Origin: Chloroflexota bacterium
GTDB lineage: Bacteria > Chloroflexota > Dehalococcoidia > Lucifugimonadales > Lucifugimonadaceae
NCBI GenBank assembly: GCA_022574675.1
Contig: JACZRO010000002.1
Coordinates: 8,529-72,528 of the forward strand
Direction of reading: 5' to 3'
DNA length: 64,000 bases
Part shown: piece by piece, positions 5,306-62,165 of the stretch
Layout: every line of letters begins with the position of its first letter
Position numbering within the stretch: the stretch's first letter is position 1
Notes under the pieces: generated by a model
The model's database searches: none
Seen by the model: only the letters and a program-made list of their open reading frames with translations
What the model was told of the DNA's origin: nothing
Position numbers and translations under genes: made by a program

Positions 5306-5325
5306 CCGGCAAATTCGTCGACGTC

Positions 5326-5353
5326 AACGCCCCGTTTGCCGGGGCGTTTTTTT
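5326..5353 (+). terminator. Rho-independent terminator
   Basis: AACGCCCCG-tttgc-CGGGGCGTT followed by a run of T (5347..5353). Confidence 0.7.
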
Positions 5354-5431
5354 ATCTGGATGCGCTTCCCCGTGCCGGCGAGGCACCCGTAGCCGCCTTT
5401 CCACACATTTTTCCGATCCCGGGCGCCGGAA

Positions 5432-5944
5432 TCAGTAAGTGACCAGCGAGTGAACCTCGTGGTCTTTCAGCACAGCCCGTCCGTTCAACGCGGCCAGTTC
5501 CACGACAAACGCCATGGCGAGTACCTGCGCGCCCAACCGTTCGATAAGCAGCGCCGCCGCCGCAGCCGTGCCGCCGGTGGCCAGCAGGTCATCCACCACC
5601 AGCACACTGTCACCCTGCTTCAGGGCGTCGGTCCGAATCTCCATGTGGCCAGCGCCGTATTCAAGTTCAAAGTCGACCCCGACCACCTCCGGCGGGAGCT
5701 TGTTCTCCTTGCGTAACGGGACGAAGGGGAGTCCCAGCCCCAACGCTATGGGCACGCCAAACATGAATCCCCGCGACTCGATGCCGGCTACCGCGTCGAT
5801 CGGCGCGTCCCGGTACTTGTCCACGAGGCTATTCACTGCGTAGCTGAACGCCTCCGGCGCCTTCCACAATGGTGTGAGGTCCCGGAACAGGACGCCGGGT
5901 TGCGGGTAGTCCGGGATATCACGGATCCAGTTCTTCAGGTCCAC
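5432..5944 (-). CDS. apt: Adenine phosphoribosyltransferase
   Basis: 170 aa. IRDIPDYPQPGVLFRDLTPL, GIESRGF, PRPP-binding loop VLVVDDLLATGGTA. Confidence 0.9.
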   Translation of the reverse strand: MDLKNWIRDIPDYPQPGVLFRDLTPLWKAPEAFSYAVNSLVDKYRDAPIDAVAGIESRGFMFGVPIALGLGLPFVPLRKENKLPPEVVGVDFELEYGAGHMEIRTDALKQGDSVLVVDDLLATGGTAAAAALLIERLGAQVLAMAFVVELAALNGRAVLKDHEVHSLVTY

Positions 5945-49623: not shown

Positions 49624-50532
49624 TTGGAACAGTCAATGGAAATCACCGCGATAAGTCAGCCCCCGGTATGGAGAGGTTATCTCTGGCCGGCGCTGCTCAC
49701 GCTCTCCGTACTCGGGTTTGCTGCGATCGCCGGATTCATCTGGCGAGACGGCGGTGTTGTCACCGCGAACATACTCAGCCTCCAGGGTCAATCCGAGGGC
49801 CAGGTCAGCGCCCTTAGCAGCATCATCCCCCTGGGATTCGCGTTCACGGTCGGCATGGTCGCCACGCTCAACCCCTGCGGCTTCGTGATGTTGCCCGCCT
49901 ACCTTGGTCTGTACATCGGCACCGACGACGGCGACAATTCCGTCAAACTCGGTCGCCGGATGGTCAGCGCCGGAAGCGTGAGCATGTCCGTCGGTCTCGG
50001 TTTCATCGTGTTGTTCGGCGCAGTTGGGCTGATCATCACCTCCGTGACGACCTCGATCGTGCAGTACTTTGACTGGGTCGGGCTGGGCGTCGGGATCATC
50101 ATGGGTGGCACGGCGATGTACGTCCTGGCGGGCGGAAAGCTGTACAACAGGTTCGCAGCCAACACCTCGGCCAAGATCGGTGACCCGCGCGACAGCACGC
50201 TTGTCGGATACTTCCTGTTCGGGATCAGTTACGCCGTAGCATCGCTCGGCTGCACGCTTCCGCTGTTCCTGGCGGTCGTGGCCAGCTCAGCTACGGGGAG
50301 TTTCCTGTTCGGGGCCTCGCAATTCGTCTCTTACGCCCTGGGCATGACGTTTATCTTCGCGGTGCTGACCCTGAGCGTCGCCCTGTTCAAGGGCGTGATG
50401 GTCAAATGGATGCGCAAGGCGATGCCATACGTCCAGCCTGCGTCGGCGGTGCTCCTGCTCCTCGCAGGCGCTTACCTGATCTTCTACTGGCTGACGGTCG
50501 GGGGCCTCGCGGACGTTATCGCCCAGGCATGA
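49624..50532 (+). CDS. Cytochrome c biogenesis CcdA/DsbD-type transmembrane thiol-disulfide transporter
   Basis: Polytopic. VATLNPCGFVMLPAYLG and a second Cys-containing helix (VASLGCTLPLF). Confidence 0.75.
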   Translation: MEQSMEITAISQPPVWRGYLWPALLTLSVLGFAAIAGFIWRDGGVVTANILSLQGQSEGQVSALSSIIPLGFAFTVGMVATLNPCGFVMLPAYLGLYIGTDDGDNSVKLGRRMVSAGSVSMSVGLGFIVLFGAVGLIITSVTTSIVQYFDWVGLGVGIIMGGTAMYVLAGGKLYNRFAANTSAKIGDPRDSTLVGYFLFGISYAVASLGCTLPLFLAVVASSATGSFLFGASQFVSYALGMTFIFAVLTLSVALFKGVMVKWMRKAMPYVQPASAVLLLLAGAYLIFYWLTVGGLADVIAQA

Positions 50533-51645: not shown

Positions 51646-53256
51646 ATGTTCGACCTGTTGATCAAGAACGGCACCGTCCTGGACGGCACGGGCGCGCCCG
51701 GCTATGCCGCCGACATCGGGATCTCGGGCGACAGCATCACGGTCGTCGGCGACCTGGACGGTGAGGCGGCCCGGAATTCAACCAGGACGATCGATGCGTC
51801 CGGGCGCGTGGTGACTCCCGGGTTCATCGATCTTCACTGTCACAGCGACATGTCGTTCCTGATCGACCCGCTCGCCGATTCAAAGTTGACGCAGGGCGTG
51901 ACGCTGGAACTCAATGGCAACTGCGGCATGAGCCCCTGCGCTCCGCTACAGTCCAAAGCGGCCCGGGAAGCGCTTGAAAGCCGTTTCTTCACGGCCGGCG
52001 CGGAGTTCAGCCCGGACTGGACCGACTTCGCCGGATACCTGGACGCCCAGGAACGTGCGGAGGGCGTGATCAACCAGGCGTTCCAGGTCGGCCACGGCAC
52101 TGTGCGCACCAACGTCCTCGGCATGGACGCCCGGGCGCCGACGATCGACGAGATGGAGCAGATGAAGCGGCTGGTGGCGGAGAGCATCGACGCCGGGGCG
52201 ATGGGCTTCGCGACCGGGCTGTTCTACGCGCCCGGGAGCTACTCGCTCACCGACGAGGTGGTGCAGCTGGCGCAGGAGGCCGCTGACCGCGGGGTGCTGT
52301 ACTCGAGCCATATCCGGTCGGAGTCGAACGATAGCGTCGGGCTGCACGTCGCGGTGAACGAGGCGATCGAGATCGGCCGCCGCACGGGCGGTCGCATCCA
52401 GATGTCACACGTCAAGGTAAAAGGCCCGTTCACCTGGGGCCGGGCCGACGAGGTCCTGGACCTGCAGGCGCGTGCCCGGCGTGAGGGTATCGACGTCGCC
52501 GGCGACCAGTACCCGTATGTTGCGTCGAGCACCTCGCTAACCGGAGGGTTGTTCCCGCGCTGGGCGCTGGTGGGCGGGCGGACCGCCACGCTGGAGATGA
52601 TGGACGACTCAGATCTCCGGGCGCGCTTGCGAGACGGCATCGACTGGAACATCAAGAGCTTCATGGGCTCTCCCGACCGTGTTCTTCTAGCCGCGTACGG
52701 GCCGGACCGAAGTCGCGAGGGTCAACGGTTGAACGAGATCGCGGACGACATGGGGTGTGAGCCAGCGGAGGCGGCGATCAGGCTTTACGAAGGGGCCGAG
52801 GCGTCTATCGTCCAGTTTTCGTTGCACGAAGACGATGTAGATCTGATCGCCCGCGACCCGTTCATCGCCGTCGCCTCCGATGGCAACTCGGTGCGCTCGG
52901 AAGGCCCGTTGTCGAGCGGCAAGCCCCACCCTCGTTCATACGGGACGTTCCCGCGTTACCTGGCAGAGATGCACCGGGATAAAGGCCTGGTTTCGCTAGA
53001 GGAGGCCGTGCGCAAGATGTGCGCATTGCCGGCGTCTCGGCTGCGTCTGACTCGACGGGGCCGGATCGCGCCCGGCTGTTTCGCGGACGTGGTGGTGTTC
53101 AACCCGGACACCGTACAGGACCGCGCCACTTTCACAGACCCGCACCAGTACACGACGGGGATCGACGCCGTCGTGGTCAACGGGCAGATCGCGCTGGAGG
53201 ACGGGTCGCCGACCGGGGTCCGGGCCGGGCGGGTGGTGCGGTCCGCAGACGGCTAG
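51646..53256 (+). CDS. N-acyl-D-amino-acid deacylase (D-aminoacylase) family amidohydrolase
   Basis: MFDLLIKNGTVLDGTG..., PGFIDLHCHSD, ...ADVVVFNPDTV... Confidence 0.85.
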   Translation: MFDLLIKNGTVLDGTGAPGYAADIGISGDSITVVGDLDGEAARNSTRTIDASGRVVTPGFIDLHCHSDMSFLIDPLADSKLTQGVTLELNGNCGMSPCAPLQSKAAREALESRFFTAGAEFSPDWTDFAGYLDAQERAEGVINQAFQVGHGTVRTNVLGMDARAPTIDEMEQMKRLVAESIDAGAMGFATGLFYAPGSYSLTDEVVQLAQEAADRGVLYSSHIRSESNDSVGLHVAVNEAIEIGRRTGGRIQMSHVKVKGPFTWGRADEVLDLQARARREGIDVAGDQYPYVASSTSLTGGLFPRWALVGGRTATLEMMDDSDLRARLRDGIDWNIKSFMGSPDRVLLAAYGPDRSREGQRLNEIADDMGCEPAEAAIRLYEGAEASIVQFSLHEDDVDLIARDPFIAVASDGNSVRSEGPLSSGKPHPRSYGTFPRYLAEMHRDKGLVSLEEAVRKMCALPASRLRLTRRGRIAPGCFADVVVFNPDTVQDRATFTDPHQYTTGIDAVVVNGQIALEDGSPTGVRAGRVVRSADG

Positions 53257-53332
53257 CGTCCCGGGTGATTCAGGAACGGCCGGGCACGCACGCGGCGTGC
53301 ATGGGCGCCCGAAACGTGACTCGCAAGGCGAA

Positions 53333-53548
53333 TCAGCCAGCGCCGGACAACGCCTCACTCTGTTTTGGCGGGCAGCGGCGGTCCGCGTAGGAGCAAAAGA
53401 CGCAGCATTCGCCTTCCTTCGGCCGGAGCAGCTCGCCGCACGACGTGCAGTCGTAGAACACCTGTCAGGTGTCGGCCGGCATTGTCTCCCGTTTCGCGGC
53501 GCCACAGGCCGGACAGGTCAGTACGGCTTCCAGAAATATCTTCGGCAT
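53333..53548 (-). CDS. GDCCVxC-type small Cys-rich protein with in-frame TGA at codon 28 (53465..53467); candidate selenoprotein
   Basis: Hand translation: MPKIFLEAVLTCPACGAAKRETMPADT[TGA]QVFYDCTSCGELLRPKEGECCVFCSYADRRCPPKQSEALSGAG*. Not in the ORF track because of the TGA. Confidence 0.7.
53440..53454 (-). other. SECIS-like hairpin 10 nt downstream of TGA 53465..53467
   Basis: mRNA ACGAC-UGCAC-GUCGU. Confidence 0.35.
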
Positions 53549-53635
53549 CGTCTCGTTCCCTCTTGCCGGTCTCCGTTGCCGGGCCGGGGAGTTGTTGTTC
53601 ATAGCTGGTGGTTAGAGGGCGGCCGTTCGCGCGCC

Positions 53636-54349
53636 TCAGCAGTCACACGCGATCTCGTCATCTGGGTCGCCGACCCTCTCCTCCGCGTCAACTCGCCACA
53701 TGGTGCCGATGAGCCGGCCGCCGGACGTCGCGACCAGGATGCGATCGACGTTACGCGCCTGCATCCGTTCCAGAATCGGCGCCGCCTCGGCGTCTGGGCG
53801 GGATGTGGTCGGGCCGAGCTCCATGATGTCCTCGACGACAGCTGCGGGGTCGCCCGCCAGCGCCGGAGCACGCAGCCGGCCGAGGATGATCCGTTGTTCG
53901 TTGACGACAATGCACTGGTCCTGGTTCGCGGCGCGCGCGCGCTCGGCCGCATCTCCGACGGTATCCTCCAGCGCGCAGGTCACGTCGTCCGTCCGAGCCA
54001 CGTCAGCAGCCCGGAGGACGGGCATTGCGTCGCCCTCGCGCGGCAATCCTGCGGCGAACCAGTCCGCCTTTCCCGCCTCGTAGTCATATACGTTTGTAAA
54101 GCCAAGGGATTCAAGCCGCGCCGCGGCTCGTAGACTCATGTCTCAAGTCGCGTCGTGTCAGTACAGGACGACCGGGCGGGCGCGATCGAGGACGGCCGCG
54201 GTGTCCCGGTTGAGCTTCTTGAGGGGGAGGTTGATGGCGCCGGGCAGACGGCCCTCGGCGTACTCGCGGGCCGGGAGCACGTCGACGAGCTGGGTATCCT
54301 CATCGTCGAGCATTCTCTGAAGTTCATCTCGTGAAACCGTCGTTGGCAT
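53636..54349 (-). CDS. Rhodanese-domain + CBS-pair protein with two in-frame TGA codons (54158..54160 and 54143..54145) in the active-site loop; candidate di-selenocysteine protein
   Basis: Track ORFs 54158..54349 and 53636..54139 are in one frame. Read-through gives ...DRARPVVLY[TGA]HDAT[TGA][34 protein letters not shown]..., followed by a CBS pair. Confidence 0.7.
54114..54128 (-). other. SECIS-like hairpin 14 nt downstream of the second TGA (29 nt from the first)
   Basis: mRNA AGCCG-CGGCG-CGGCU. Confidence 0.35.
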
Positions 54350-54382
54350 TCGATTTTCCTTCCAATCAGGCCCATCGCCGCG

Positions 54383-54925
54383 TCAGATCGCTTCTTCTAT
54401 GTACTGCGCCAATCGGTCGTACCCCACCGGGGGGCCGCTGTAGACCACTCGATGGTCACGGTCCAGCACTACCGTGTGTCCGAGAACCCGTACCCGGAAA
54501 TCCGAGACGAGTTTCCCGTCCGGCGCCACAGCCCAGGACACGTCGGCCGCCCCTTTAGACCGCCAGTACTGGACCCAGCTTTGTAGTGGATCCCCGTAGA
54601 TGTCGATCGCTACCGTTCGCAGCCCCTCGCTTCGATACTTCTCTTGAAGCGCCCCGAGGACTGGAGCCTCCAGTCCGCATGTCGGTCAGCCAACGAACGA
54701 AAAATAGATGACGAGCGGCCGGTCGGCATGGTCCACGAGGCGGAACTCGGACATCTCCAGGGTCCCTTCACCCACCGCGTCGGCGACCTGAATCGAAAAC
54801 TCCGGAGAGGGCGGCCGGCCGGAGACCAGTTCTTCTGAGGTTCTCTCCGAGCTTTGGCAGGCGATGGTCGCGATCATTCCGATTACGACCACCGCGCCTA
54901 TAAATGGCAAGCGGATCAATCTCAC
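54383..54925 (-). CDS. TlpA/ResA-like thioredoxin-fold protein (signal/lipoprotein-like N-terminus) with in-frame TGA (54686..54688) at the first Cys of CxxC; candidate selenoprotein
   Basis: Read-through gives ...DRPLVIYFSFVG[TGA]PTCGLEAPVLGALQEKYRSEGLRTVAIDIYGDPLQSWVQYWRSKGAADVSWAVAPDGKLVSDFRVRVLGHTVVLDRDHRVVYSG...*. N-terminus MRLIRLPFIGAVVVIGMIATIAC. Confidence 0.7.
54658..54676 (-). other. SECIS-like hairpin 9 nt downstream of TGA 54686..54688
   Basis: mRNA GGACUGGA-GGC-UCCAGUCC (8-bp perfect stem; or 7 bp with loop AGGCU). Confidence 0.45.
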
Positions 54926-55095
54926 CGGCTCTGCTCTTCCCCCGCCGTCAACTCCGGCGCGGGCTTCTCCGCGTCGCGTAAATCAAGCTCGGTCTCGTCA
55001 CCCTCGTGAGCCCTCGATCTCAGTCCTCTGACGGCGACCACCGCCGCAATGGCGATCGGTATGCAACATACCGCTGCGGCTAGAAAAAAAGGCAC
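54922..55095 (-). CDS. Small single-pass membrane protein with a vicinal Cys pair in the TM helix
   Basis: GTG 55095 preceded by GGGGGA. (M)PFFLAAAVCCIPIAIAAVVAVRGLRSRAHEGDETELDLRDAEKPAPELTAGEEQSR*. Its stop overlaps the GTG start of the next gene (GTGA). Not in the ORF track. Confidence 0.45.
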   Translation of the reverse strand: MPFFLAAAVCCIPIAIAAVVAVRGLRSRAHEGDETELDLRDAEKPAPELTAGEEQSR

Positions 55096-55139
55096 CTGTC
55101 ATCCCCCTAAAGTTCCCGTGTCCTCAGTCCAACTGGCGT

Positions 55140-55811
55140 TCAGGCGTACTTCAACAAGGAAGCCCAGGCTTGCTTTCCGAGATCGAACGCATCCGGCAAC
55201 GATAGGAAGACGACTTTCATGTCCCTGCCCTCGGACCACTCTTTTGCCTCAGCCTGATTCGCAAAGAAATGGACTTGCTGGCAGAACGTCATGTAGATGG
55301 ACTCGATAGAACTTCCGTCATCGCCTGCCGGGTCCAGCATGATCATGGATACGACGGCATCCGGGTGACTGCTCGACGACACGCCCTCCGGCGTGACGGT
55401 CAACGTGATCGACTCTCCCGATGACGGAGAATTGGATACGACCAGGGCTTCTTTGCCGAGGGCCGGCGGCAGGAACAACGAATCCCACGCGCACCAGGTA
55501 CTCAGTCGAACGCCGGATACGGTGAACTGGTGCGGGTGCTCGTTGAGCGACAGGCCCGCTACACCGAGGATGTTGTCGTCATCATCTCGTTCAGATATCT
55601 CCCGTACGAACGCCTCGGCGGCATCTCGATCCACGCCCAGGGCGTCGGAGATCTCGGAAACGTCGGCCGGCCGGATCGGATCGCCTTCGGCCAACCGTCG
55701 CCATATTGCGATCAGAACCCGGGCGTCGTCGGATCCAAACAAAGGCGGTATGCCGGCGGAGTTCAGATTTTCGGCGATTTCTCCGATGGTCAGCTGCGTG
55801 TTGGTCGTCAT
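55140..55811 (-). CDS. merB: Organomercurial (alkylmercury) lyase MerB
   Basis: LSTWCAWDSLFLPPALGKEALVVSNSPSSGESITLTVTP and TFCQQVHFFANQAEAKEW align with the MerB catalytic regions (YAWCALDTLIFPALIG... / SFCCHVHFFAS...). The Cys-Asp-Cys triad is conserved. Confidence 0.85.
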   Translation of the reverse strand: MTTNTQLTIGEIAENLNSAGIPPLFGSDDARVLIAIWRRLAEGDPIRPADVSEISDALGVDRDAAEAFVREISERDDDDNILGVAGLSLNEHPHQFTVSGVRLSTWCAWDSLFLPPALGKEALVVSNSPSSGESITLTVTPEGVSSSSHPDAVVSMIMLDPAGDDGSSIESIYMTFCQQVHFFANQAEAKEWSEGRDMKVVFLSLPDAFDLGKQAWASLLKYA

Positions 55812-55858
55812 TTCACGATTCTCTGTTGTTTACTCGCCTGTTAGCGCGTTTCTTTGTC

Positions 55859-56215
55859 TTACCGGAGCGTCTGGCAGGCGATGACCTGCTCGGCGTTATC
55901 TGCCAGCACTTGCTCTGCGCCTCGGAGGAGGTCCGCTACGCGGTCATCTCCGATGGAATAGATCACTCTCTTGCCGTCGCGCACGGACGCCACGAGCCCG
56001 CACCACTTGAGACAGGCGAGGTGCGTCGAAATCCTGCTCTGGGACCCTCCTGTGCCTTCCACGAGTTCGCCCACGCTTTGCGGGCCTTCGTCCAGAAGAA
56101 GTTTCAATATTCGGACCCGGGTAGGATCGCCGAGCGCCCGGAAGAACTTGGCCAGCAGGTCGGCTTGAGCCGCCAACAATTCCTGCGTGCGCTCTCGAGT
56201 TAGCGTTGTGGTCAT
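55859..56215 (-). CDS. ArsR/SmtB-family metalloregulator
   Basis: FFRALGDPTRVRILKLLLDEGPQSVGELVEGTGGSQSRISTHLACLKWCGLV. The Cys pair in the recognition helix region is a possible metal site. Confidence 0.85.
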   Translation of the reverse strand: MTTTLTRERTQELLAAQADLLAKFFRALGDPTRVRILKLLLDEGPQSVGELVEGTGGSQSRISTHLACLKWCGLVASVRDGKRVIYSIGDDRVADLLRGAEQVLADNAEQVIACQTLR

Positions 56216-56233
56216 AGTTCACTTCCATGTATT

Positions 56234-56284
56234 CGCAATTGCGGATATGAGGTACATGATGACCCAGAATTGCGATTGACGCAA
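56234..56284. promoter_or_regulatory. Candidate operator palindromes upstream of the ArsR-family gene
   Basis: CGCAATTGCG (56234..56243, perfect palindrome) and TTGCG-attga-CGCAA (56270..56284). Both contain AATTGCG. Confidence 0.3.
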
Positions 56285-56330
56285 GCGCGATCGAATTGGA
56301 GGCAGACGCTTGTCTGACGGACCAATGGCG

Positions 56331-56393
56331 TTCGAGGACGGAGCGCCGACCGGCGTCAGGGGTGGCCGGGTGGTGCGGTCCGAGGACGGCTAG
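56331..56393 (+). pseudogene. Relic copy of the D-aminoacylase 3' end (direct repeat of 53194..53256)
   Basis: 52/63 nt identical by hand alignment. Encodes FEDGAPTGVRGGRVVRSEDG* versus LEDGSPTGVRAGRVVRSADG* at the real gene end. Confidence 0.55.
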
Positions 56394-56977
56394 TCCGCGA
56401 GCTTCGACCAGGTCTCGGCCCAGGCCAGGACGGCGCTGCTGGTGGGCCGGCCGAAGCGATTCTCTTCGTACGGCTCGCCGGCCGCAAAGTCGCCGTCGAC
56501 GGTGATCCTCGCCTCACGCGCCTGCACGAAGGTCGTCCACGCGCTCAACGGTATCTGGCCTTCACCCCTGCCGCCCGGCATGTGCATCACAAAGGCGGGC
56601 TGAAGGTCGGTCCATGTCAGCGAGAACTCCTCGGCGTCTGAGGTGACGAACTCGGTCGAGTACGAGCGGGCGTCGCCCTCGCGAAGAAACTCGGCATCGC
56701 GGACCGGCAGGGATGTATCGGCGTGGCGCGGGTACAGAAACCCCTGGATATTGACCTGCAGGAAGCGTGCGAGGGCGATGTTGTCGCTGTAGACGCGCGC
56801 CTCGCCCCCGGTCATCTCGCCTTCGTAGAACAGAACGTGGCCGGGTCCGGCGGGGGTCCACAGCACACGCCAGTGGCTCGCGCGCTCCGTGATCGTCTCG
56901 CCGCCGTCGCGGCTGAGCCTGATGAACGAGTTCTCGCCGACGAGGATAACTTCGCCGTTATCGATGATGGGAGGCAT
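56390..56977 (-). CDS. Hypothetical protein (195 aa)
   Basis: Protein-like ORF. No family recognised. Confidence 0.5.
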   Translation of the reverse strand: MPPIIDNGEVILVGENSFIRLSRDGGETITERASHWRVLWTPAGPGHVLFYEGEMTGGEARVYSDNIALARFLQVNIQGFLYPRHADTSLPVRDAEFLREGDARSYSTEFVTSDAEEFSLTWTDLQPAFVMHMPGGRGEGQIPLSAWTTFVQAREARITVDGDFAAGEPYEENRFGRPTSSAVLAWAETWSKLAD

Positions 56978-57534: not shown

Positions 57535-58716
57535 TTGACTTACGACCTGGTGATCAAGAACGGGACCGTGATCGACCCGTCGCAGGACCTGCACGCGCGG
57601 CGCGACGTCGCCATTGCCGGCGGGCGGATCGTGGCGGTAGATGAGCATGTCTCGGACAACGACACCCACGACGTCATAGAGGCGGACGGCCTGCTCGTGC
57701 TCCCGGGTCTCGTGGACCTCCACGTGCACGTGTGGTGGGGCGTCGCGCACCTTGCCATCGAGGCCGACGCCCATTCACTGTCGCGCGGCGCAACGACGAT
57801 CGTGGACGCCGGGTCGGCGGGCGCCAACACGATAGCCGGGTTCCGCCGCTACGTGATCGACCAGGTGGATGCGAGGACCCTCGCCTTCCTCCACATATCG
57901 GGCATGGGCCAGCTCGATCAGGAGATCGGAGAACTGGAGGACATCCGCTGGGCGCGCGTCGATAAGGCGGTCGAGGCGGCGAAGATGCATCCGGACGTCA
58001 TCGTCGGCGTCAAGGTTCGGCTGACGGAGGGGATCGTCGGCAAGAACGACCTGGTCGCGCTTGACCGGGCGATCGAAGCCGCCGGGTACCTGGACAAGCC
58101 CGTAATGATCCACATCGGCGGAACGCACCACGACCTGGAGGAGATACTCGGCCGGCTGCGCCCCGGCGACATCGTCACGCACAGCTTCACGGCCAACCCG
58201 CCGGGCATCATCACCGACGCCGGCGCGGTCCTCCCCGCCGCGCTGGAGGCGCGCGCCCGCGGCGTGAACTTTGACGTGGGACACGGAGCGGGCAGCTTCA
58301 GCTTCCGCGTGGCCGAGGCGGCGCTTGAACACGGGTTCACGCCGGCCACGGTCTCGAGCGATGTCCATCGTTACAACGTTCGCGGCCCGGTGTACGACCT
58401 GGCGACGACGCTCTCCAAGTTCCTCCATCTCGGCCTCTCGCTCGACGAAGTCGTCCGGCTCGCCACTTCGGCCCCGGCGAGCGCTGTCGGGCGCGGCGAC
58501 CAGTTCGGGACGCTCAGGGTCGGCGTCGAGGCGGACGTGAGCGTCATGCGGCTTGAAGAGGGCGCGTTCAGGTTCACCGACGCCCCGGGCGACGTGCGTA
58601 TCGGCGACAGGCTGCTCACCCCGGTCGTTACGTTGCGCGCCGGTCGGCGGCATGCGCCGACACACGGCGCCCACCCCGATCTACTGACCCAGCATCCACA
58701 TCAATCTCCCGCATGA
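57535..58716 (+). CDS. Amidohydrolase/deacetylase-family metallohydrolase
   Basis: LVIKNGTVIDP..., PGLVDLHVHVW. TTG start. Confidence 0.8.
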   Translation: MTYDLVIKNGTVIDPSQDLHARRDVAIAGGRIVAVDEHVSDNDTHDVIEADGLLVLPGLVDLHVHVWWGVAHLAIEADAHSLSRGATTIVDAGSAGANTIAGFRRYVIDQVDARTLAFLHISGMGQLDQEIGELEDIRWARVDKAVEAAKMHPDVIVGVKVRLTEGIVGKNDLVALDRAIEAAGYLDKPVMIHIGGTHHDLEEILGRLRPGDIVTHSFTANPPGIITDAGAVLPAALEARARGVNFDVGHGAGSFSFRVAEAALEHGFTPATVSSDVHRYNVRGPVYDLATTLSKFLHLGLSLDEVVRLATSAPASAVGRGDQFGTLRVGVEADVSVMRLEEGAFRFTDAPGDVRIGDRLLTPVVTLRAGRRHAPTHGAHPDLLTQHPHQSPA

Positions 58717-59477
58717 CGCTTTCTACCCAGGAACGCACGGGTCCGGGCGATCAAGCCGCGACCGGCGTCGTCGCTATCGAAGCGACTCGCCTGGAGAAGT
58801 CGTTCGGGAACGCTGCCGTGTTGCGCGGCCTTGACATGAAGGTCCGGGACGGCGAGGTGGTGGCCATCTTCGGCGCCAACGGCGCAGGTAAAACCACCCT
58901 GCTGCGGATCCTTGCGACCCTCACGAGGCCTGACCACGGCACGGTATCGATCTACGGCAACGACCTGGCGCGCGAGGCGGAGAGGGCCCGTCTCTCACTG
59001 GGCGCCGTCCTCCACTCGCCGATGCTCTACGGCGACATGACCGTGGAAGAGAACCTGAAGTTTTTCGGCCGGATGTTCCGCGTCCCGGGGCTGAGCGCGC
59101 GCGTCCTTGAGATCGCAGACCGGATGGGACTCACGCCGCGGTTGGACCAGCGCGTGCGTGAGCTGTCCCACGGATACCGGAAGCGAGCCGCGCTGGCCCG
59201 GGCGCTTCTGCACCGGCCCAGAGTCCTTCTACTCGACGAGGCCGAAACCGGGCTCGACGAGCCGGCGCGGCAGGTCCTCGACAGTGTGATCGCCGAGCAC
59301 CGCGCCGCCGGACACGCTGTCGTGATGACCACCCACTCCGTGGAAAGAGGGATCGCCGCGTCGGACCGCGTACTCGTGCTCGCGGGTGGGCGCTTTGCTC
59401 TGGACGAGCCGTCCTCCAGTGTGACGCTCACCGACGTCACCCGTTTTTACATTGAGCCCGAGCCAGGGGACGCCTGA
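58713..59477 (+). CDS. ccmA: ABC transporter ATP-binding protein, probable heme exporter CcmA
   Basis: Walker A GANGAGKTTLL, signature LSHGYRKR, Walker B LLLDEA. Lies directly upstream of ccmB/C. Confidence 0.8.
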   Translation: MTLSTQERTGPGDQAATGVVAIEATRLEKSFGNAAVLRGLDMKVRDGEVVAIFGANGAGKTTLLRILATLTRPDHGTVSIYGNDLAREAERARLSLGAVLHSPMLYGDMTVEENLKFFGRMFRVPGLSARVLEIADRMGLTPRLDQRVRELSHGYRKRAALARALLHRPRVLLLDEAETGLDEPARQVLDSVIAEHRAAGHAVVMTTHSVERGIAASDRVLVLAGGRFALDEPSSSVTLTDVTRFYIEPEPGDA

Positions 59478-60151
59478 TGGGCGCTGCGCTGGCGACGGTC
59501 TGGACCCTGGCGCGGAAGGATCTGCTGCTGGAGCTGCGCTCGCGGGACATCGTTCTCGCGATAGTGGTGTTCGCCCTCCTCGTGATCACCATCTTCACGT
59601 TCGCCATCGAACTCACGCCGTCCCGTTCCAGGGATGTCGGCCCGGGCGTCCTGTGGGCGGCCGTGGCGTTTGCCGGGGTGCTTGGCATCAACCGGTCGTT
59701 CGCCATGGAAGCGGAAGGGGACACGCTGGACGGGTTGATGCTGACGCCGGTCAGCCGGGAGCTGATCTTCTTCGGCAAGTCTCTCGCCAATTTCATCTTC
59801 ATTACCGTCGCGGAGATAGTGATCTTCCCAGTGTTCGAGGCGCTGTTCAACATCAACGTGCTGCGGATCGAGACGATCGTGATCGCGTTGCTCGCGAGCA
59901 TCGGCTTCTCCGCCGTGGGGACGGCGTTCGCCGCCGTTTCTGTAAGGGTCCGATCGCGCGAGATCATGCTGCCCTTATTGTTCTTGCCGACGGTCATTCC
60001 GCTGATAATGGCCGCTGTAGAGTCGACGTCCGTGGTCGTCAACGGCGGGAGCTGGTCGGGCTTTAGCGCGTGGTTGCAACTGGCGATCGCGTTCGACGTG
60101 ATCTTCGTCATCGCCTCGGCCGTGCTTTTCCAGTTCGTACTGGAGGAGTGA
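59477..60151 (+). CDS. ccmB: Heme exporter protein CcmB
   Basis: Six-TM protein with a CcmB-like N-terminus (LARKDLLLELRSRD...) and ...EAEGDTLDGLMLTP... Confidence 0.8.
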   Translation: MGAALATVWTLARKDLLLELRSRDIVLAIVVFALLVITIFTFAIELTPSRSRDVGPGVLWAAVAFAGVLGINRSFAMEAEGDTLDGLMLTPVSRELIFFGKSLANFIFITVAEIVIFPVFEALFNINVLRIETIVIALLASIGFSAVGTAFAAVSVRVRSREIMLPLLFLPTVIPLIMAAVESTSVVVNGGSWSGFSAWLQLAIAFDVIFVIASAVLFQFVLEE

Positions 60152-60292
60152 TCACAGGCTGGATCGTCCTGAAAATCCCGGATTCCCGGGTGCCCGCGCG
60201 GTAGATTCTCACCGAAAATCGATAGCGTGAAGTCGCGCTCGTGATAGACTGCACACAGTCTCAGCCAGTGCACGGCGGAGCAAAATCAAGCG

Positions 60293-61060
60293 ATGGTCGC
60301 CGTTCCTAAAATACGTTTGATCTGGCTCGGGCTAACCGCAGCCCTCATGGCCCTGACGCTCTGGATGATATTTATCTGGGTGCCGACCGAGGTTAACCAG
60401 GGCAACATCCAGCGATCCCTGTACTTCCATGTCCCGGTGGCGTGGACCGCGATGGTCGCGATCGTCCTGGTCGCGTTCGCGAGCGTCGCCTACTTGAAGA
60501 CGCGCAGCGAGAAGTGGGACCGCCTCGCGGTCGCCGCCGCCGAGACCGGCGTGATCTTCGCCGGATTGATGCTCATCACAGGGATGGTCTGGGCGAAACC
60601 CGTCTGGGGCGTCTGGTGGACCGGCGAGGCAAAGCTCACCACCACGCTGATCCTGTTCTTCATCTACGTTGCGTACCTGATGTTCCGGGCCTACTTTCCG
60701 CCGGGCGAACAGCGACGGAGGCTGGCTGCGGTCATTGGACTGATGGGAGCGATCGACACGCCGATCATCTACTACGGGGCGCAACTGTGGGAGCGCGCTC
60801 ACCCATCAGCGGTGGTCGGCCCGCTCTCGGATTCGGATAGCAGCGTCGACGGGCCGATCGGGATCACCCTCATCGTGGCCGTGGTGGCGTTCTCTGTCCT
60901 GTTTGCTTACGTAGCCAGCGAAAGGTATCGGCTGCGCAAACAGGAGGACGAGGTGATGGAACTCAGGCGGGCCGTATCTCTGCGACCAGCCCTTGCGATC
61001 TCGTCATCGCTGGAGACGACAGAATCAACGGCCAGCGCCCCGGCCGGAGGCGCCTACTAA
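60293..61060 (+). CDS. ccmC: Heme exporter/heme lyase subunit CcmC
   Basis: YFHVPVAW and Trp-rich motif WAKPVWGVWWTGEAKLTT. Confidence 0.85.
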   Translation: MVAVPKIRLIWLGLTAALMALTLWMIFIWVPTEVNQGNIQRSLYFHVPVAWTAMVAIVLVAFASVAYLKTRSEKWDRLAVAAAETGVIFAGLMLITGMVWAKPVWGVWWTGEAKLTTTLILFFIYVAYLMFRAYFPPGEQRRRLAAVIGLMGAIDTPIIYYGAQLWERAHPSAVVGPLSDSDSSVDGPIGITLIVAVVAFSVLFAYVASERYRLRKQEDEVMELRRAVSLRPALAISSSLETTESTASAPAGGAY

Positions 61061-61618
61061 ATGCGCAAGCGCATCATCCCGCTTCTCATCGCGATCGTCC
61101 TGCTCGCCATCCCCGGCGTTGCGCTGGCACAATCCCCCGACGCGGCGTCGAAGGCCTCCGACGGCAACACCAGCGGGGTGATTACGGTGATTCGGGTCGA
61201 CCAGGACACAAACCTGGTCGGGTTCGTACTATCCACTAAGGATGGCGAACTGGTCGAGATCGCGGTGGGCGATGCGACAAGCTTCGGCCTTGAGAACGCT
61301 GCGGGAGACCGTTGGGTAGCGGAGCTCGGTGGAGACCCGTCTGAAGCGCTTTTACGTATTCGTGATCAGAGAGAGCGGTTCTCTCCCGTTACGGTCACCG
61401 TCGTGGACGGCGTCGCGAGCGCCGTTGTCAGCCGTGAGCAGGGCGATCTCGAACAGAACCTCGGATTCCTGTTCGCCATATATCTGGTGACGTGGGCGGG
61501 GTTCTTCGTCTACATATTTATCGTGTCTCGCCGGCAGCACGACCTCGCGCGAGAGATTCAGGTCCTCAAGGGCCAGGTCTTCGGCGTGGACGCGTCTGAA
61601 GCCAGTCAGGCGGGGTAG
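61061..61618 (+). CDS. Secreted-domain protein fused to a CcmD-like C-terminal TM segment
   Basis: Signal peptide MRKRIIPLLIAIVLLAIPGVALA. C-terminal LGFLFAIYLVTWAGFFVYIFIVSRRQHDLAREIQVLK resembles CcmD. Lies between ccmC and ccmE. Confidence 0.5.
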   Translation: MRKRIIPLLIAIVLLAIPGVALAQSPDAASKASDGNTSGVITVIRVDQDTNLVGFVLSTKDGELVEIAVGDATSFGLENAAGDRWVAELGGDPSEALLRIRDQRERFSPVTVTVVDGVASAVVSREQGDLEQNLGFLFAIYLVTWAGFFVYIFIVSRRQHDLAREIQVLKGQVFGVDASEASQAG

Positions 61619-61628
61619 AAGGCCCAGA

Positions 61629-62165
61629 ATGAACAAGTACGACGACCCGATCTCAGATGGGCAGCCGGAGAACCGGCCGCAGGAAGTTGCAGCGACAGCT
61701 ACAACGTTATTCACGCCTCGGGTGAAAGTGGCGGTGGCGCTCGCGTTATTCGTGGGAGCGCTCGGCTATTTCGTGTTCACGACGTTCGACAGCGCGACCG
61801 TTTACTACATGTCTGTATCCGAGATCGAGGCCGGCGGCCCGACAGAGCCCGGCAAGTTCATCCGTCTCACCGGGACGCTGGTCGAGGAGTCGTTCGTCCG
61901 GCAGCCCAACGGCCTGGACGCCCGGTTTGAAATCCGTGACGAGGCCGGCGATATCCTTGGCGTGAACTACAGCGGCGAGATCGGGCAGGTATTTTTCAAC
62001 CCGCACTCGACGATCGACCTGGAGGGCCGGTATACGGACCAGGGCGTATTTGTGACAGAGCAACTGGTGATCAAATGCCCGTCGAAGTTCCTTACCGAAG
62101 CGGAACGGGATGAGCTTGAAGGGGGGACCGGAGCGGCGCCGTACCAGGTGGTGATCGACGCCTAG
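61629..62165 (+). CDS. ccmE: Cytochrome c maturation heme chaperone CcmE, Cys-type variant
   Basis: TM anchor plus OB-fold (FIRLTGTLVEESF...) and LVIKCPSKF in place of the canonical HxxxY heme-binding motif. Confidence 0.8.
   Translation: MNKYDDPISDGQPENRPQEVAATATTLFTPRVKVAVALALFVGALGYFVFTTFDSATVYYMSVSEIEAGGPTEPGKFIRLTGTLVEESFVRQPNGLDARFEIRDEAGDILGVNYSGEIGQVFFNPHSTIDLEGRYTDQGVFVTEQLVIKCPSKFLTEAERDELEGGTGAAPYQVVIDA

What the first reader, a model, noticed from the sequence alone, without database searches (positions are those of the whole stretch)
54383..54925. Exported TlpA-like thioredoxin-fold protein with U-P-T-C and the strongest SECIS-like hairpin
Read-through of TGA 54686..54688 joins a signal/lipoprotein-like N-terminus (…MIATIAC) to a complete thioredoxin fold: LVIYFSFVG-[TGA]-PTCGLEAPVLGALQEKY...VAIDI...VSWAVAPDGKLVSDFRVRVLGHTVVLDRDHRVV. 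The TGA replaces the nucleophilic Cys of the WCxxC motif. Nine nt downstream there is a perfect 8-bp hairpin, GGACUGGA-GGC-UCCAGUCC. Thioredoxin-fold UxxC proteins are a known class of selenoprotein. An extracytoplasmic one inside a merB operon is unusual.
Basis: partly seen in the sequence, partly recalled or inferred. Interest (0 to 1): 0.65.

Follow-up and report, generated by a model that had tools for sequence, protein, structure and literature searches.

The report
Mercury-operon selenoprotein with thioredoxin fold
This is a real gene for a membrane-anchored, outward-facing thioredoxin-like protein whose key cysteine is replaced by selenocysteine, and it belongs to a widespread, so far unnamed family that sits in mercury-resistance gene clusters of Chloroflexota and a few other phyla.

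Summary
The minus-strand gene 54925..54383 has one in-frame TGA (54686-54688). Reading through it gives a 180-aa protein that passes Pfam Redoxin across the TGA. The TGA lies where ResA and DsbE have the first Cys of CxxC. The 8-bp hairpin GGACUGGA-GGC-UCCAGUCC, 9 nt downstream, meets every criterion of the bacterial SECIS model.

A DNA pattern that allowed TGA, TGC or TGT found 74 further family members, and all 74 carry TGA. In 56 distinct sequences the hairpin is 98% paired, with compensatory changes.

The family is not in NCBIfam. It belongs to a known class, the TlpA-like/Redoxin UxxC selenoproteins. Neighbours are mer genes (MerA, MerB, ArsR or MerR, HMA), never cytochrome c maturation genes. 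The membrane partner is either a roughly 50-aa peptide with CC in its helix or a CcdA-like protein, and rarely both. The thioredoxin-family cis-Pro is replaced by an invariant Gly.

The most likely function is exofacial capture of Hg(II) or organomercury and hand-off to a membrane Cys pair. This is inferred. The main rival is a CcdA-fed disulfide reductase. Sec machinery could not be checked, but three other selenoprotein genes lie in the window.

The parts
54383..54925 (-). Gene for the TlpA/ResA-like thioredoxin-fold selenoprotein (180 aa with Sec80). GTG start overlaps the stop of the upstream CC-peptide gene by 4 nt (GTGA).
   Evidence: Translation. Pfam Redoxin spans the TGA. PDB matches. 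Orthologues.
54686..54688 (-). In-frame UGA read as selenocysteine. It is the first position of the U-P-T-C active-site motif.
   Evidence: It aligns to the first Cys of CxxC in ResA, DsbE and the Cys homologues. TGA is present in 76 of 76 family members with the G-x-P-T-C-x-L-E-A-P motif, although TGC and TGT were allowed in the search.
54658..54676 (-). Bacterial SECIS hairpin. 5' arm 54676..54669, apical loop GGC 54668..54666, 3' arm 54665..54658. There are 17 nt from the UGA to the loop.
   Evidence: MFE fold. Folding energy -11.9 kcal/mol. RNAalifold gives the same helix. Pair counts are 98-99% paired, with 14 and 32 compensatory cells and 0 of 500 shuffles reaching this. The model criteria are given.
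54857..54925 (-). Signal peptide with lipobox (MRLIRLPFIGAVVVIGMIATIA|C23). It predicts a lipid-anchored protein on the outer face of the membrane.
   Evidence: Read directly from the sequence. A lipobox or an N-terminal TM anchor is conserved in the homologues. No signal-peptide predictor was available.
54922..55095 (-). 57-aa single-helix membrane peptide with CC in the helix (MPFFLAAAVCCIPIAIAAVVAV...). It is the conserved upstream partner of the selenoprotein gene.
   Evidence: No family hit. An equivalent 39-66 aa CC peptide lies directly upstream in 27 of 62 loci with enough upstream sequence. Its presence is anti-correlated with a downstream CcdA-like gene.
55140..55811 (-). MerB-family organomercurial lyase homologue with TWCAWD and FCQQVHFF motifs.
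   Evidence: NCBIfam MerB models score 151.6 and 132 bits, both below the curated cutoffs of 193 and 200.
55859..56215 (-). ArsR/SmtB-family metalloregulator and first gene of the operon.
   Evidence: NF033788 scores 89.5 bits. ArsR homologues are next to the family gene in seven of the genomic loci.
53636..54349 (-). Rhodanese-CBS gene of the same operon, with two in-frame UGAs (54158-54160 and 54143-54145; motif Y-U-HDAT-U-DMS).
   Evidence: Translation. Pfam Rhodanese 68 bits plus CBS (protein 2). The TsoB rhodanese domain model scores 37.9 bits. The UxxxxU form is listed as known.
53333..53602 (-). GDCCVxC (seleno)protein gene of the same operon, with in-frame UGA at 53465-53467.
   Evidence: NF041374 scores 96.7 bits against a cutoff of 40. 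Translation.
49624..50532 (+). CcdA/DsbD_TM-like membrane protein, about 4 kb away. It is homologous to the CcdA-like genes that directly follow the selenoprotein gene in other genomes.
   Evidence: 38-49% identity to those genes by tblastn. 38% identity, E=1e-31, to the CcdA of the Rhodococcus mer operon. Pfam DsbD_TM scores 25.8 bits, just below the cutoff of 27.1.

Best explanation
The gene encodes a genuine selenoprotein. It is a lipid-anchored, extracytoplasmic protein of the TlpA/ResA type of thioredoxin fold, and its active site is U-P-T-C. The UGA is recoded to selenocysteine by a bacterial SECIS hairpin that starts 9 nt downstream, inside the coding sequence. The bases that encode L-E-A-P form the top of the stem and the loop.

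The protein is the Sec form of the thioredoxin-like accessory protein of ArsR- or MerR-regulated mer operons. Actinobacteria carry the Cys form.

The most likely mechanism is inferred and I put it at about 0.5. On the outer face of the membrane the selenolate/thiolate pair binds Hg(II) or an organomercurial, acting as a MerP analogue. Binding is made possible by loss of the cis-Pro that normally keeps metals off the CxxC site. The metal is then handed by ligand exchange to a Cys pair buried in the membrane. That pair belongs either to the co-translated 57-aa CC peptide or to a CcdA-like protein. From there it reaches the cytoplasmic mer proteins: MerB and the Sec-containing rhodanese-CBS and GDCCVxC proteins here, or MerA in most other genomes.

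Shown here: the gene, the Sec codon, the SECIS, the fold, the conserved gene neighbourhood and the loss of cis-Pro. Inferred: export, Hg binding and the direction of hand-off.
For: Gene and Sec codon. The Pfam Redoxin match spans the TGA. The closest orthologue, L001 (52.6% identity by tblastn; fragment P0001 55%), has TGA at the same codon. A DNA pattern that permitted TGA, TGC or TGT found 22 family members in GTDB genomes and 52 in metagenomes, and all 74 have TGA. Many database proteins are truncated calls that begin just after the motif.

SECIS. All four criteria of the published model are met (criteria, values). The synonymous sites of CUG-GAG-GCU-CCA are almost invariant even though the search left them free. 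The two basal pairs covary: GC 25, CG 24, GU 3, UA 2 at one pair, and GC 49, AU 5, UA 1, GU 1 at the other. Of all cells, 98.2% are paired, against 25-50% in the slid controls. A Sec paralogue with a different peptide (E-U-PTC-RVVYPS) has a different hairpin at the same place. Distant Cys forms lack the hairpin.

Sec use by this organism. The window also holds a GDCCVxC gene, a rhodanese gene with two UGAs, and a DUF3179 gene, all interrupted by TGA at Cys positions. All three are families listed as selenoproteins.

Mercury link. In the genomic loci tblastn finds MerA-like genes in nine loci (plus orthologue L001), CcdA-like genes in eight, ArsR in seven and HMA proteins in four (plus L001). 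A Pfam census of 146 neighbours in the 22 loci gives 8-9 with Pyr_redox_2 plus Pyr_redox_dim, five with DsbD_TM, four MerR, four ArsR and three HMA. Five of five tested neighbours pass the MerA equivalog cutoff. All 19 metagenome loci of 3 kb or more have a mer-type neighbour. The only plasmid hit is the TlpA gene of a Rhodococcus CcdA-TlpA-merA-merB operon. Cys homologues are also next to MerA and DsbD_TM genes.

Metal rather than redox. The cis-Pro of ResA and DsbE is replaced by an invariant Gly, or by Asp in actinobacterial forms. The cis-Pro is thought to prevent metal binding to CxxC (PMC2757866, citing Su et al. 2007). The partner is either a one-helix CC peptide or a CcdA-like protein and rarely both: 10, 14, 1 and 4 loci for the four combinations, Fisher p=5e-4. 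A 50-aa CC helix resembles the CC helices of MerT and MerF. It cannot plausibly replace CcdA as an electron conduit.
Against: There is no experimental evidence of any kind, neither for selenium insertion nor for Hg binding. Sec machinery (selA, selB, selC, selD) is not in the window, and the source genome could not be found.

The two closest Cys forms (P0030, P0012) keep most of the hairpin. Part of its conservation could therefore reflect the C-x-x-C-x-x-E-x-P protein motif shared with ResA, or these are recent Sec-to-Cys conversions.

A TlpA-like protein next to CcdA is the classical electron-delivery pair, for example in ResA systems. The fold model is closest to true reductases.

A very tight Hg-Se bond could hinder onward transfer.

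In this window CcdA is 4 kb away and no MerA is present. MerB scores below NCBIfam's trusted cutoffs.

The co-occurrence statistics are not corrected for phylogeny. All homologues were found through one peptide motif.
Confidence: 0.6

Rival explanations
1. It is a conventional extracytoplasmic thiol-disulfide reductase, in a Sec-boosted version. A CcdA-like protein would re-reduce it with electrons from cytoplasmic thioredoxin. Its job would be to keep exofacial Cys residues of mer or envelope proteins reduced, or to repair them under mercury or oxidative stress. This is the logic of ResA/CcmG and of the surface lipoprotein thioredoxins that work with CcdA.
For: The fold and sequence are closest to ResA, DsbE and TlpA, and the pneumococcal surface lipoprotein thioredoxin Etrx2 is among the structural matches. 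The ResA-type C-x-x-C-x-x-E-x-P motif is retained. A CcdA-like gene directly follows in 14 of 29 fully sampled loci. In one Cys-form locus a glutaredoxin follows CcdA. Sec in UxxC thioredoxin-fold proteins is usually interpreted as a catalytic enhancement (review).
Against: The cis-Pro is strongly conserved in thioredoxins and cytochrome-maturation proteins and forms part of the substrate-binding site. It is missing in every member. In 10 of 29 loci, and next to this gene, the adjacent membrane partner is a 50-aa CC peptide with no CcdA nearby, which gives no obvious electron source. A selenol-based catalyst would be an easily poisoned target in a mercury-exposed compartment.
Confidence: 0.3
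2. It is the ResA/CcmG-type reductase of cytochrome c maturation, and belongs functionally to the Ccm genes that lie 4 kb away in the window.
For: CcmA, CcmB, CcmC, a CcmD-like gene and CcmE homologues lie at 58713..62165. No CcmG was seen among them. The fold is that of ResA/CcmG.
Against: The gene is on the opposite strand, in a different operon headed by ArsR and MerB. None of the 74 homologous loci has a Ccm neighbour, whereas mer genes are recurrent. The cis-Pro is lost.
Confidence: 0.04
3. The UGA is not read as selenocysteine. The gene could be a pseudogene or an assembly error. Or the UGA could be decoded as Cys or another residue by a non-canonical tRNA, or by leaky read-through.
For: No tRNA-Sec or sel gene is in the window. 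Sec insertion was not measured. Recoding of Sec codons by Cys through unusual tRNAs has been described in some bacteria (recalled from memory, not checked here).
Against: A nonsense mutation or error cannot be conserved in 76 independent sequences from several phyla together with a covarying hairpin. Three other genes in the window, from families catalogued as selenoproteins, have UGA at Cys positions. TGA is the normal stop of half the genes.
Confidence: 0.04

Closest known systems
[quoted passage not shown]
   Same: Same fold class, same UxxC position for Sec, and a bacterial SECIS directly downstream. The best Pfam model here is also PF08534.
   Different: I could not compare sequences with the catalogue examples (MGB1650493.1, HEU0032618.1), so identity with either listed family is open. 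The catalogue entries carry no mer-operon link, no CC-peptide or CcdA partner and no note on cis-Pro loss. NCBIfam has no model for this family: the best hit is ResA at 21 bits against a cutoff of 170.
ResA / CcmG (DsbE) / TlpA extracytoplasmic thiol-disulfide reductases
   Same: Membrane-anchored thioredoxin fold with an N-terminal hairpin and a central insert. The Cys homologue superposes at TM 0.88-0.90 and rmsd 1.6-2.0 A. The motif is C-x-x-C-x-x-E-x-P, and there is frequent pairing with a CcdA/DsbD_TM protein.
   Different: Sec replaces the first Cys. The Trp before the motif is replaced by Gly. The cis-Pro is replaced by an invariant Gly. The family is never next to cytochrome c maturation genes and is next to mer genes instead.
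TlpA-family and CcdA-family proteins of actinobacterial mer operons (e.g. Rhodococcus qingshengii pCP2; proteins annotated 'mercury transporter' in Gordonia and Rhodococcus)
   Same: They are homologous: 28% identity, E=2e-12 for the TlpA part and 38% identity, E=1e-31 for the CcdA part. The neighbours are the same, merA and merB (ArsR-type 'MerR' in the actinomycete table). The cis-Pro is also lost, to Asp. A review table lists them as the prevalent Hg proteins of actinomycetes (PMC12195606).
   Different: The actinobacterial proteins have W-C-x-x-C with Cys and no SECIS. Their function is itself only an annotation and is untested as far as I could find.
MerP-MerT/MerF mercury uptake relay of proteobacterial mer operons
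   Same: The proposed logic is the same. An exofacial dithiol-type site captures Hg(II) and passes it to a CC pair in a membrane helix and then to cytoplasmic mer proteins. The position in a mer operon is also shared.
   Different: There is no homology. MerP has the HMA fold with GMTCxxC, while this is a thioredoxin fold with UPTC. The CC peptide matches no MerT, MerF or MerE model. This is an analogy only, and it is not tested.
SaoT, the thioredoxin-like selenoprotein of the SAO system (Haft and Gwadz 2022 preprint)
   Same: It is a thioredoxin-like protein with UPTC among its motif variants. It sits in an operon with a MerB homologue and several other selenoproteins, and is proposed to touch a heavy-metal species rather than act as a plain reductase.
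   Different: SaoT is about 85 aa and related to MJ0307, has no signal or lipobox, and occurs in anaerobes such as Clostridioides. It belongs to a different family (NF040730 did not hit). The same authors state that no selenoprotein was known in characterised mercury-resistance families.

Membership tests
Bacterial selenoprotein gene (Sec-UGA plus bSECIS) | The in-frame UGA aligns with Cys in homologues, and homology continues on both sides. | tested here: met
   Pfam Redoxin covers residues 56-165 across residue 80. The UGA aligns to the first Cys of ResA, DsbE and 3ha9 and of the Cys homologues P0030, P0012 and the Rhodococcus TlpA.
Bacterial selenoprotein gene (Sec-UGA plus bSECIS) | The UGA is conserved in orthologues from independent genomes. 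| tested here: met
   Window, L001, 22 genome loci and 52 metagenome loci all have TGA, under a pattern that also allowed TGC and TGT.
Bacterial selenoprotein gene (Sec-UGA plus bSECIS) | bSECIS model: apical loop 3-9 nt, stem 4-16 bp, G in the first two loop positions, 16-37 nt from UGA to loop, MFE of -7.5 kcal/mol or lower. | tested here: met
   Loop GGC (3 nt), stem 8 bp, 17 nt spacing, -11.9 kcal/mol. Criteria are quoted from PMC13188914. Covariation is shown.
Bacterial selenoprotein gene (Sec-UGA plus bSECIS) | The genome encodes SelA, SelB, SelD and tRNA-Sec. | not testable with these tools
   None is in the 64-kb window, and the source genome was not found. There is indirect support from three other UGA-interrupted genes of catalogued selenoprotein families in the window. 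Chloroflexi are known to include Sec users (PMC1794560).
Bacterial selenoprotein gene (Sec-UGA plus bSECIS) | Selenium is actually incorporated at the UGA. | not testable with these tools
   This needs 75Se labelling or mass spectrometry.
TlpA/ResA/CcmG-type extracytoplasmic thiol-disulfide oxidoreductases (cd02966) | Thioredoxin fold with the TlpA-type N-terminal hairpin and central insert. | tested here: met
   Profile-to-PDB E-values of 6e-14 to 1e-12 against DsbE and ResA. The model of Cys homologue P0030 has pLDDT 83.6 and TM 0.88-0.90 to ResA and DsbE. The model is of a homologue with 32% identity, not of the window protein itself.
TlpA/ResA/CcmG-type extracytoplasmic thiol-disulfide oxidoreductases (cd02966) | W-C-x-x-C redox motif at the start of helix 1. 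| tested here: inconclusive
   The motif is G-U-P-T-C. Position and spacing are kept, but the first Cys is Sec and the Trp is Gly.
TlpA/ResA/CcmG-type extracytoplasmic thiol-disulfide oxidoreductases (cd02966) | Conserved cis-Pro before strand 3, facing the active site. | tested here: not met
   The LPT of ResA and MPT of DsbE align with L-G-[HQT]-T. Gly is invariant in all 24 complete Sec forms, and Asp is present in the actinobacterial Cys forms.
TlpA/ResA/CcmG-type extracytoplasmic thiol-disulfide oxidoreductases (cd02966) | Export or membrane anchoring. | tested here: met
   A lipobox (TIAC) follows a charged n-region and a hydrophobic h-region. A lipobox or TM anchor is present in the homologues. 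This was judged by inspection only.
TlpA/ResA/CcmG-type extracytoplasmic thiol-disulfide oxidoreductases (cd02966) | Genomic link to cytochrome c maturation or another defined redox client. | tested here: not met
   No Ccm neighbour in 74 loci. In the window the Ccm genes are in a separate, opposite-strand cluster.
mer-operon TlpA/CcdA accessory pair (actinobacterial type) | Homology to the TlpA-family gene of a bona fide mer operon. | tested here: met
   The only plasmid tblastn hit is the TlpA gene of the R. qingshengii pCP2 CcdA-TlpA-merA-merB cluster. Pairwise E=2e-12.
mer-operon TlpA/CcdA accessory pair (actinobacterial type) | Recurrent neighbourhood with MerA or MerB and a metalloregulator. 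| tested here: met
   Five of five neighbours pass the MerA equivalog TIGR02053, at 494-537 bits against a cutoff of 454. In the window itself the neighbours are ArsR and a MerB homologue.
mer-operon TlpA/CcdA accessory pair (actinobacterial type) | A role in mercury binding or transport. | not testable with these tools
   For the actinobacterial proteins this is annotation only. No experiment was found in the searchable library.
MerP (periplasmic Hg-binding protein) | HMA fold with the GMTCxxC motif. | tested here: not met
   There is no HMA match. The fold is thioredoxin-like. It can only be a functional analogue.

The most novel reading that the evidence does not exclude
The gene is part of a selenium-dependent mercury relay. 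An exofacial selenolate in a thioredoxin fold without cis-Pro captures Hg(II) or methylmercury. It passes the metal to a membrane Cys pair, which is supplied either by a 50-aa CC mini-protein or by a CcdA-family protein. A CcdA-type protein would then conduct a metal ion and not electrons. In this window the chain would continue inside the cell through MerB and two further selenoproteins (rhodanese-CBS with U-x-x-x-x-U, and GDCCVxC), with no MerA nearby in the window. That would amount to Sec-based sequestration or trafficking of mercury, and not reduction to Hg(0).
Probability: 0.3. Interest if true: 0.8.

Novelty: new member of a known kind. Interest (0 to 1): 0.5.

Why it matters
Gene callers cut this gene at the UGA. 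The family, at least 76 members mostly in Chloroflexota, Dehalococcoidia and SAR202 MAGs, is present in databases only as fragments and has no NCBIfam model. Defining it would repair annotation of a recurrent mer-operon gene.

Haft and Gwadz (2022) wrote that no selenoprotein was known in the characterised mercury-resistance families, and that reliance on selenium would be an odd design for resistance. Here a Sec protein is systematically linked to MerA and MerB operons, and in this window it sits beside three more Sec codons in two neighbouring genes.

If the relay model holds, it would explain how ArsR-type mer operons that lack MerT and MerP take up mercury. It would also give a bacterial molecular example of mercury-selenium antagonism.

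Tried and rejected
- The word-index protein search with the read-through protein gave nothing.
- The protein-seeded scan of genome contigs gave nothing.
- Alignments A1 and A2 were too divergent for the search for related loci. I replaced that approach with a degenerate DNA pattern.
Only the 100 aa after the UGA were searched.
- The source contig was not found through MerB, so the organism is only inferred to be Chloroflexota-like.
- Rfam has no match in 53000..56500.
- The promoter and terminator scan found nothing in the operon.
- A GC3 frame plot was uninformative.
- The genome-wide list of TGA-joined ORF pairs was too noisy, apart from turning up the DUF3179 gene.
-, protein 1, used a DUF3179 query that I had mistyped. 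It must be ignored.
- The scripts under-counted CC peptides because of a start-codon range bug. One search is the corrected count.
- Literature searches found no experimental work on TlpA/CcdA proteins of mer operons.
- Rejected readings: pseudogene or sequencing error, two separate ORFs, and a cytochrome c maturation role.
Full report
**1. The observation**

On the minus strand, 54925..54383 reads as one frame with a single internal stop, TGA at 54686-54688...RPLVIYFSFVG-[TGA]-PTCGLEAPVLGALQEKY...EEAI. With that codon read as Cys, the 180-aa product passes Pfam Redoxin at 35.5 bits (cutoff 26.6) over residues 56-165. The domain therefore runs straight through codon 80. AhpC-TSA and Thioredoxin_8 give weaker matches over the same span.

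Sequence searches of the PDB align the codon with the first Cys of WCxxC in an Aeropyrum thioredoxin-like protein (3ha9) and in ResA. A family profile aligns it likewise with DsbE and B. subtilis ResA at E=6e-14 to 1e-12. TGA terminates 28 of 57 predicted genes of the window, so the genetic code is standard and any read-through must be local.

**2. The hairpin**

Nine nt after the UGA lies GGACUGGA-GGC-UCCAGUCC (54676..54658). It is the dominant element of the MFE fold and folds alone at -11.9 kcal/mol. The published bacterial SECIS model requires:
- a 3-9 nt loop;
- a 4-16 bp stem;
- a G in the first two loop positions;
- 16-37 nt between the UGA and the loop;
- an MFE of -7.5 kcal/mol or lower (PMC13188914).

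The values here are 3 nt (GGC), 8 bp, GG, 17 nt and -11.9 kcal/mol. The 64-kb window contains only 23 perfect 8-bp hairpins with 3-9 nt loops.

**3. Relatives**

The word-index search and a protein-seeded genome scan found nothing, as expected for a gene that callers split at the UGA. An exhaustive HMMER search with the 100 residues after the UGA gave 63 hits. Many are 78-112 aa proteins that begin just after the motif (for example VLEAPALARIQ..., MEAPALGRIH...), which is the signature of truncated calls. Others are full-length Cys forms with GCPTC, GCQTC or WCxxC.

The DNA of the closest hit (L001; fragment P0001 55% identity, read-through protein 52.6% by tblastn) shows ...LVLYFSFPG-TGA-PTCALEAPVLG..., followed by an HMA protein and MerA.

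I then scanned for the degenerate DNA pattern GGN-TGH-CCN-ACN-TGY-NNN-YTN-GAR-GCN-CC, which encodes G-[U/C]-P-T-C-x-L-E-A-P with TGA, TGC or TGT allowed.
- In one genome per GTDB species it gave 26 loci. Of these, 22 are true family members and all 22 have TGA. The other four are chance hits without thioredoxin homology.
- In JGI metagenomes it gave 54 loci. Of these, 52 are family members and all have TGA.
- The hosts are mostly Chloroflexota, Dehalococcoidia, SAR202 and Caldilineaceae MAGs. There are single cases in Methylomirabilia, Nitrospinaceae, Deltaproteobacteria and Betaproteobacteria.

**4. Is the hairpin an RNA element or a by-product of the peptide?**

The pattern left the synonymous positions of Leu, Glu, Ala and Pro free. 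Even so, CUG-GAG-GCU-CCA is nearly invariant, although GCU and CCA are not the codons expected in G+C-rich genomes.

The 3' partners of the lower five pairs lie outside the search pattern. In 56 distinct sequences, 98.2% of cells pair, against 25-50% when the 3' arm is slid. There are 32 cells with changes on both sides, against a shuffle mean of 12.6, and 0 of 500 shuffles reach this. Pair 20-36 is GC 25, CG 24, GU 3, UA 2. Pair 21-35 is GC 49, AU 5, UA 1, GU 1.

These pairs couple a synonymous third position of the x codon to the second position of the Val/Ala/Glu codon after Pro. Protein selection alone does not explain that coupling. RNAalifold predicts the same helix independently.

A Sec paralogue with a different peptide (E-U-PTC-RVVYPS, L028) has a different hairpin at the same distance. 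Distant Cys forms (WCxxC) have no comparable structure: -7.4 to -16.8 kcal/mol and no common helix, against a mean of -19.3 for the Sec forms.

One caveat remains. The two closest Cys forms keep 7 of 8 pairs, one of them with loop AGC instead of GGC. The E and P of LEAP are also the ResA-type C-x-x-C-x-x-E-x-P residues. Part of the sequence conservation is therefore at the protein level, or these are recent Sec-to-Cys conversions.

**5. Does the organism use Sec?**

The window has no tRNA-Sec and no sel gene among the ORFs of suitable size. The source record could not be located. This refuting test therefore remains open.

Indirect evidence is strong. Three other genes of the window are interrupted by TGA at Cys positions.
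- The GDCCVxC (seleno)protein scores 96.7 bits on NF041374.
- A rhodanese-CBS protein carries Y-U-HDAT-U-DMS, with two UGAs.
- A DUF3179 protein carries VTW-U-PLC, and Pfam scores 284.8 bits across the stop.

GDCCVxC (as 'GOS_B') and DUF3179 are catalogued selenoprotein families, and the rhodanese has the U-x-x-x-x-U form catalogued for rhodanese-like selenoproteins, although it reaches no selenoprotein model's cutoff.

**6. Location of the protein**

The N-terminus, MRLIRLP-FIGAVVVIGMIATIA-C23, has a basic n-region, a hydrophobic core and a lipobox-compatible TIAC. At least ten of the 22 genomic homologues have L-[AT]-[AG]-C-GG at the same place. Others have an Arg-rich segment followed by a TM helix. 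No predictor was available, so export as a membrane-anchored protein is inferred by inspection.

**7. Fold**

An AlphaFold model of the Cys homologue P0030 (32% identical to the window protein; 28-row alignment; pLDDT 83.6, above 90 over the domain) superposes on ResA and DsbE at TM 0.88-0.90 and rmsd 1.6-2.0 A. The hit list also includes the pneumococcal surface lipoprotein thioredoxin Etrx2.

**8. Gene neighbourhood**

In the window the gene lies in a tight minus-strand operon:
- ArsR;
- a MerB homologue (151.6 bits, below the cutoff of 193; the TWCAWD and FCQQVHFF motifs are present);
- a 57-aa CC peptide;
- this gene (4-nt overlap with the peptide gene);
- rhodanese-CBS;
- GDCCVxC.

Across the 22 genomic loci, tblastn finds MerA-like genes in nine (plus L001), a CcdA-like gene in eight, ArsR in seven, HMA proteins in four (plus L001) and GDCCVxC twice in one locus. 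A Pfam census of 146 neighbouring ORFs puts Pyr_redox_2 with Pyr_redox_dim, DsbD_TM, MerR, ArsR and HMA at the top. Five of five tested oxidoreductases pass NCBIfam's MerA equivalog cutoff. All 19 metagenome loci of 3 kb or more have at least one mer-type neighbour, and none has Ccm genes.

Cys homologues sit in the same context: MerA-HMA-MerR...Redoxin-CcdA-like in L028, and MerA...Redoxin-DsbD_TM-Grx in L031. The only hit among 72,556 plasmids is the TlpA-family gene of a Rhodococcus qingshengii CcdA-TlpA-hyp-merA-merB cluster. The window's CcdA-like protein (49624..50532) is 38% identical to that CcdA.

A 2025 review lists such TrxA-domain and CcdA-domain 'mercury transporter' proteins among the prevalent Hg proteins of actinomycetes (PMC12195606). 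[quoted passage not shown] That leaves room for a different uptake module.

**9. Two features that bear on mechanism**

(a) Loss of the cis-Pro. The cis-Pro preceding strand 3 (LPT in ResA, MPT in DsbE) is replaced by Gly in every Sec form and in the close Cys forms, and by Asp in the actinobacterial and distant Cys forms. This proline is reported to be more conserved across thioredoxin-fold groups than the CxxC itself. [quoted passage not shown] 2007).

(b) Two alternative membrane partners. A 39-66 aa single-helix peptide with CC in mid-helix (consensus roughly M..LLVALPIVCCLLIPAVIG..+) lies directly upstream in 27 of 62 loci with enough flank. Among 29 non-redundant loci with both flanks available, ten have the CC peptide only, 14 have a downstream CcdA-like gene only, one has both and four have neither. 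The odds ratio is 0.03 and Fisher p=5e-4, without phylogenetic correction. At least two of the 'neither' loci have a CC peptide elsewhere nearby.

Two alternative partners that share only a membrane-embedded Cys pair point to ligand exchange of a thiophilic metal, as with the CC helices of MerT and MerF. They point away from electron delivery, which a one-helix peptide cannot provide.

**10. Mechanism and rivals**

Best explanation: a Sec-containing exofacial mercury-capture protein that hands Hg(II), or an organomercurial, to the CC peptide or the CcdA-like protein for passage to the cytoplasmic mer proteins. I put about 0.5 on this specific mechanism. I put more than 0.9 on 'genuine selenoprotein' and about 0.85 on 'component of the mer system'.

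The main rival, at about 0.3, is a conventional but Sec-boosted disulfide reductase recycled by CcdA. The fold and the CcdA pairing support it. The cis-Pro loss and the CcdA-less architecture count against it.

A cytochrome c maturation role is disfavoured by context, despite the Ccm cluster at 58713..62165. Pseudogene, sequencing error or non-Sec decoding are very unlikely given the conservation.

**11. Relation to what is known**

Thioredoxin-fold UxxC selenoproteins are a long-known class. The 2026 catalogue lists a cd02966 'thiol-disulfide isomerase-like' UxxC family (Sargasso Sea, 2005), a PF08534 'Redoxin family' UxxC family, a UGC-containing TlpA family and others. Sec forms of MerP-like and MerT-like proteins were also predicted from ocean metagenomes. 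I could not compare sequences with the catalogue examples, so this family may already be one of those entries.

I did not find the following described anywhere:
- the systematic mer-operon linkage;
- the loss of the cis-Pro;
- the CC-peptide or CcdA alternative;
- the occurrence of three Sec genes with four Sec codons in one MerB operon.

Haft and Gwadz (2022) state that no selenoprotein was known in characterised mercury-resistance families. NCBIfam has no model for the family.

I therefore classify the finding as a new, or at least unannotated, member of a known kind. The functional reading would make it a new variant if proven.

**12. Verdict**

The finding is a solid and well-conserved selenoprotein gene. 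Its interest is moderate. The recoding mechanism and fold are textbook. The mercury context and the atypical active-site environment are worth an experiment.

Noticed in passing
window 53636..54349 (-); UGA codons at 54158-54160 and 54143-54145: A rhodanese-CBS gene directly downstream in the same operon has two in-frame UGAs five codons apart (VVLY-U-HDAT-U-DMS), at the active-site loop. An 8-bp hairpin (AGCCGCGG-CGC-...) follows at 12 nt from the second UGA and could serve both codons. The U-x-x-x-x-U form is catalogued only for the rhodanese/DsbD fusion TsoB. Here the fusion partner is CBS.
   Followed up: partly
window 53333..53602 (-); UGA at 53465-53467: The last gene of the operon is a GDCCVxC (seleno)protein (NF041374, 96.7 bits) with UGA after MPADT. 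Two GDCCVxC genes also flank the family gene in locus L008.
   Followed up: partly
window 54922..55095 (-); equivalents in L002-L089: A 57-aa peptide with CC in its single helix is translationally coupled to the selenoprotein gene (GTGA overlap). Similar 39-66 aa CC peptides precede the family gene in 27 of 62 loci, and their presence is anti-correlated with a downstream CcdA-like gene (Fisher p=5e-4). The peptide matches no known family.
   Followed up: yes
window 6048..7151 (-); UGA at 6774-6776: A DUF3179 gene is interrupted by TGA in the motif VTW-U-PLC. The read-through protein scores 284.8 bits on PF11376 across the stop. DUF3179 UxxC is a catalogued selenoprotein family. This is a fourth Sec gene in the window, unlinked to the mer operon.
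   Followed up: partly
window 49624..50532 (+): A CcdA/DsbD_TM-like membrane protein lies 4 kb from the operon. It is 38-49% identical to the CcdA-like genes that directly follow the selenoprotein gene elsewhere, and 38% identical to the CcdA of a Rhodococcus mer operon. A fumarylacetoacetase-family gene and an amidohydrolase gene lie between it and the operon.
   Followed up: partly
window 55140..55811 (-) and the whole window: The MerB homologue scores below NCBIfam's trusted cutoffs (151.6 against 193 bits), although the Cys-x-x-Asp and second Cys motifs are present. No MerA gene was found among the window ORFs scanned. This looks like a MerB-only operon rich in Sec proteins.
   Followed up: partly
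L028 4358..4933 and 5001..5579: One metagenome contig carries a Sec paralogue (E-U-PTC-RVVYPS, with its own different hairpin) and a Cys paralogue (GCPTCVLEAP, with a largely retained hairpin) in tandem. They are followed by a CcdA-like gene and preceded by MerA, HMA and MerR. This looks like a snapshot of Sec/Cys exchange.
   Followed up: partly
proteins P0002, P0003 and P0006: P0002 and P0003 are proteins with two tandem domains of this family, both with Cys motifs. P0006 begins MHRNHLLPWL-PTCALEAP, with Leu where Sec is expected. This may be a miscalled start or a variant codon.
   Followed up: no
window 58713..62165 (+): A cytochrome c maturation cluster (CcmA, CcmB, CcmC, a CcmD-like domain protein and CcmE) has no CcmG/ResA-type thioredoxin among the ORFs examined.
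   Followed up: no
L051, L055, L066, L077: Rhodanese homologues of the window's rhodanese-CBS gene occur next to the family gene in four short metagenome contigs. The pairing of selenoprotein and rhodanese is therefore not unique to this window.
   Followed up: no
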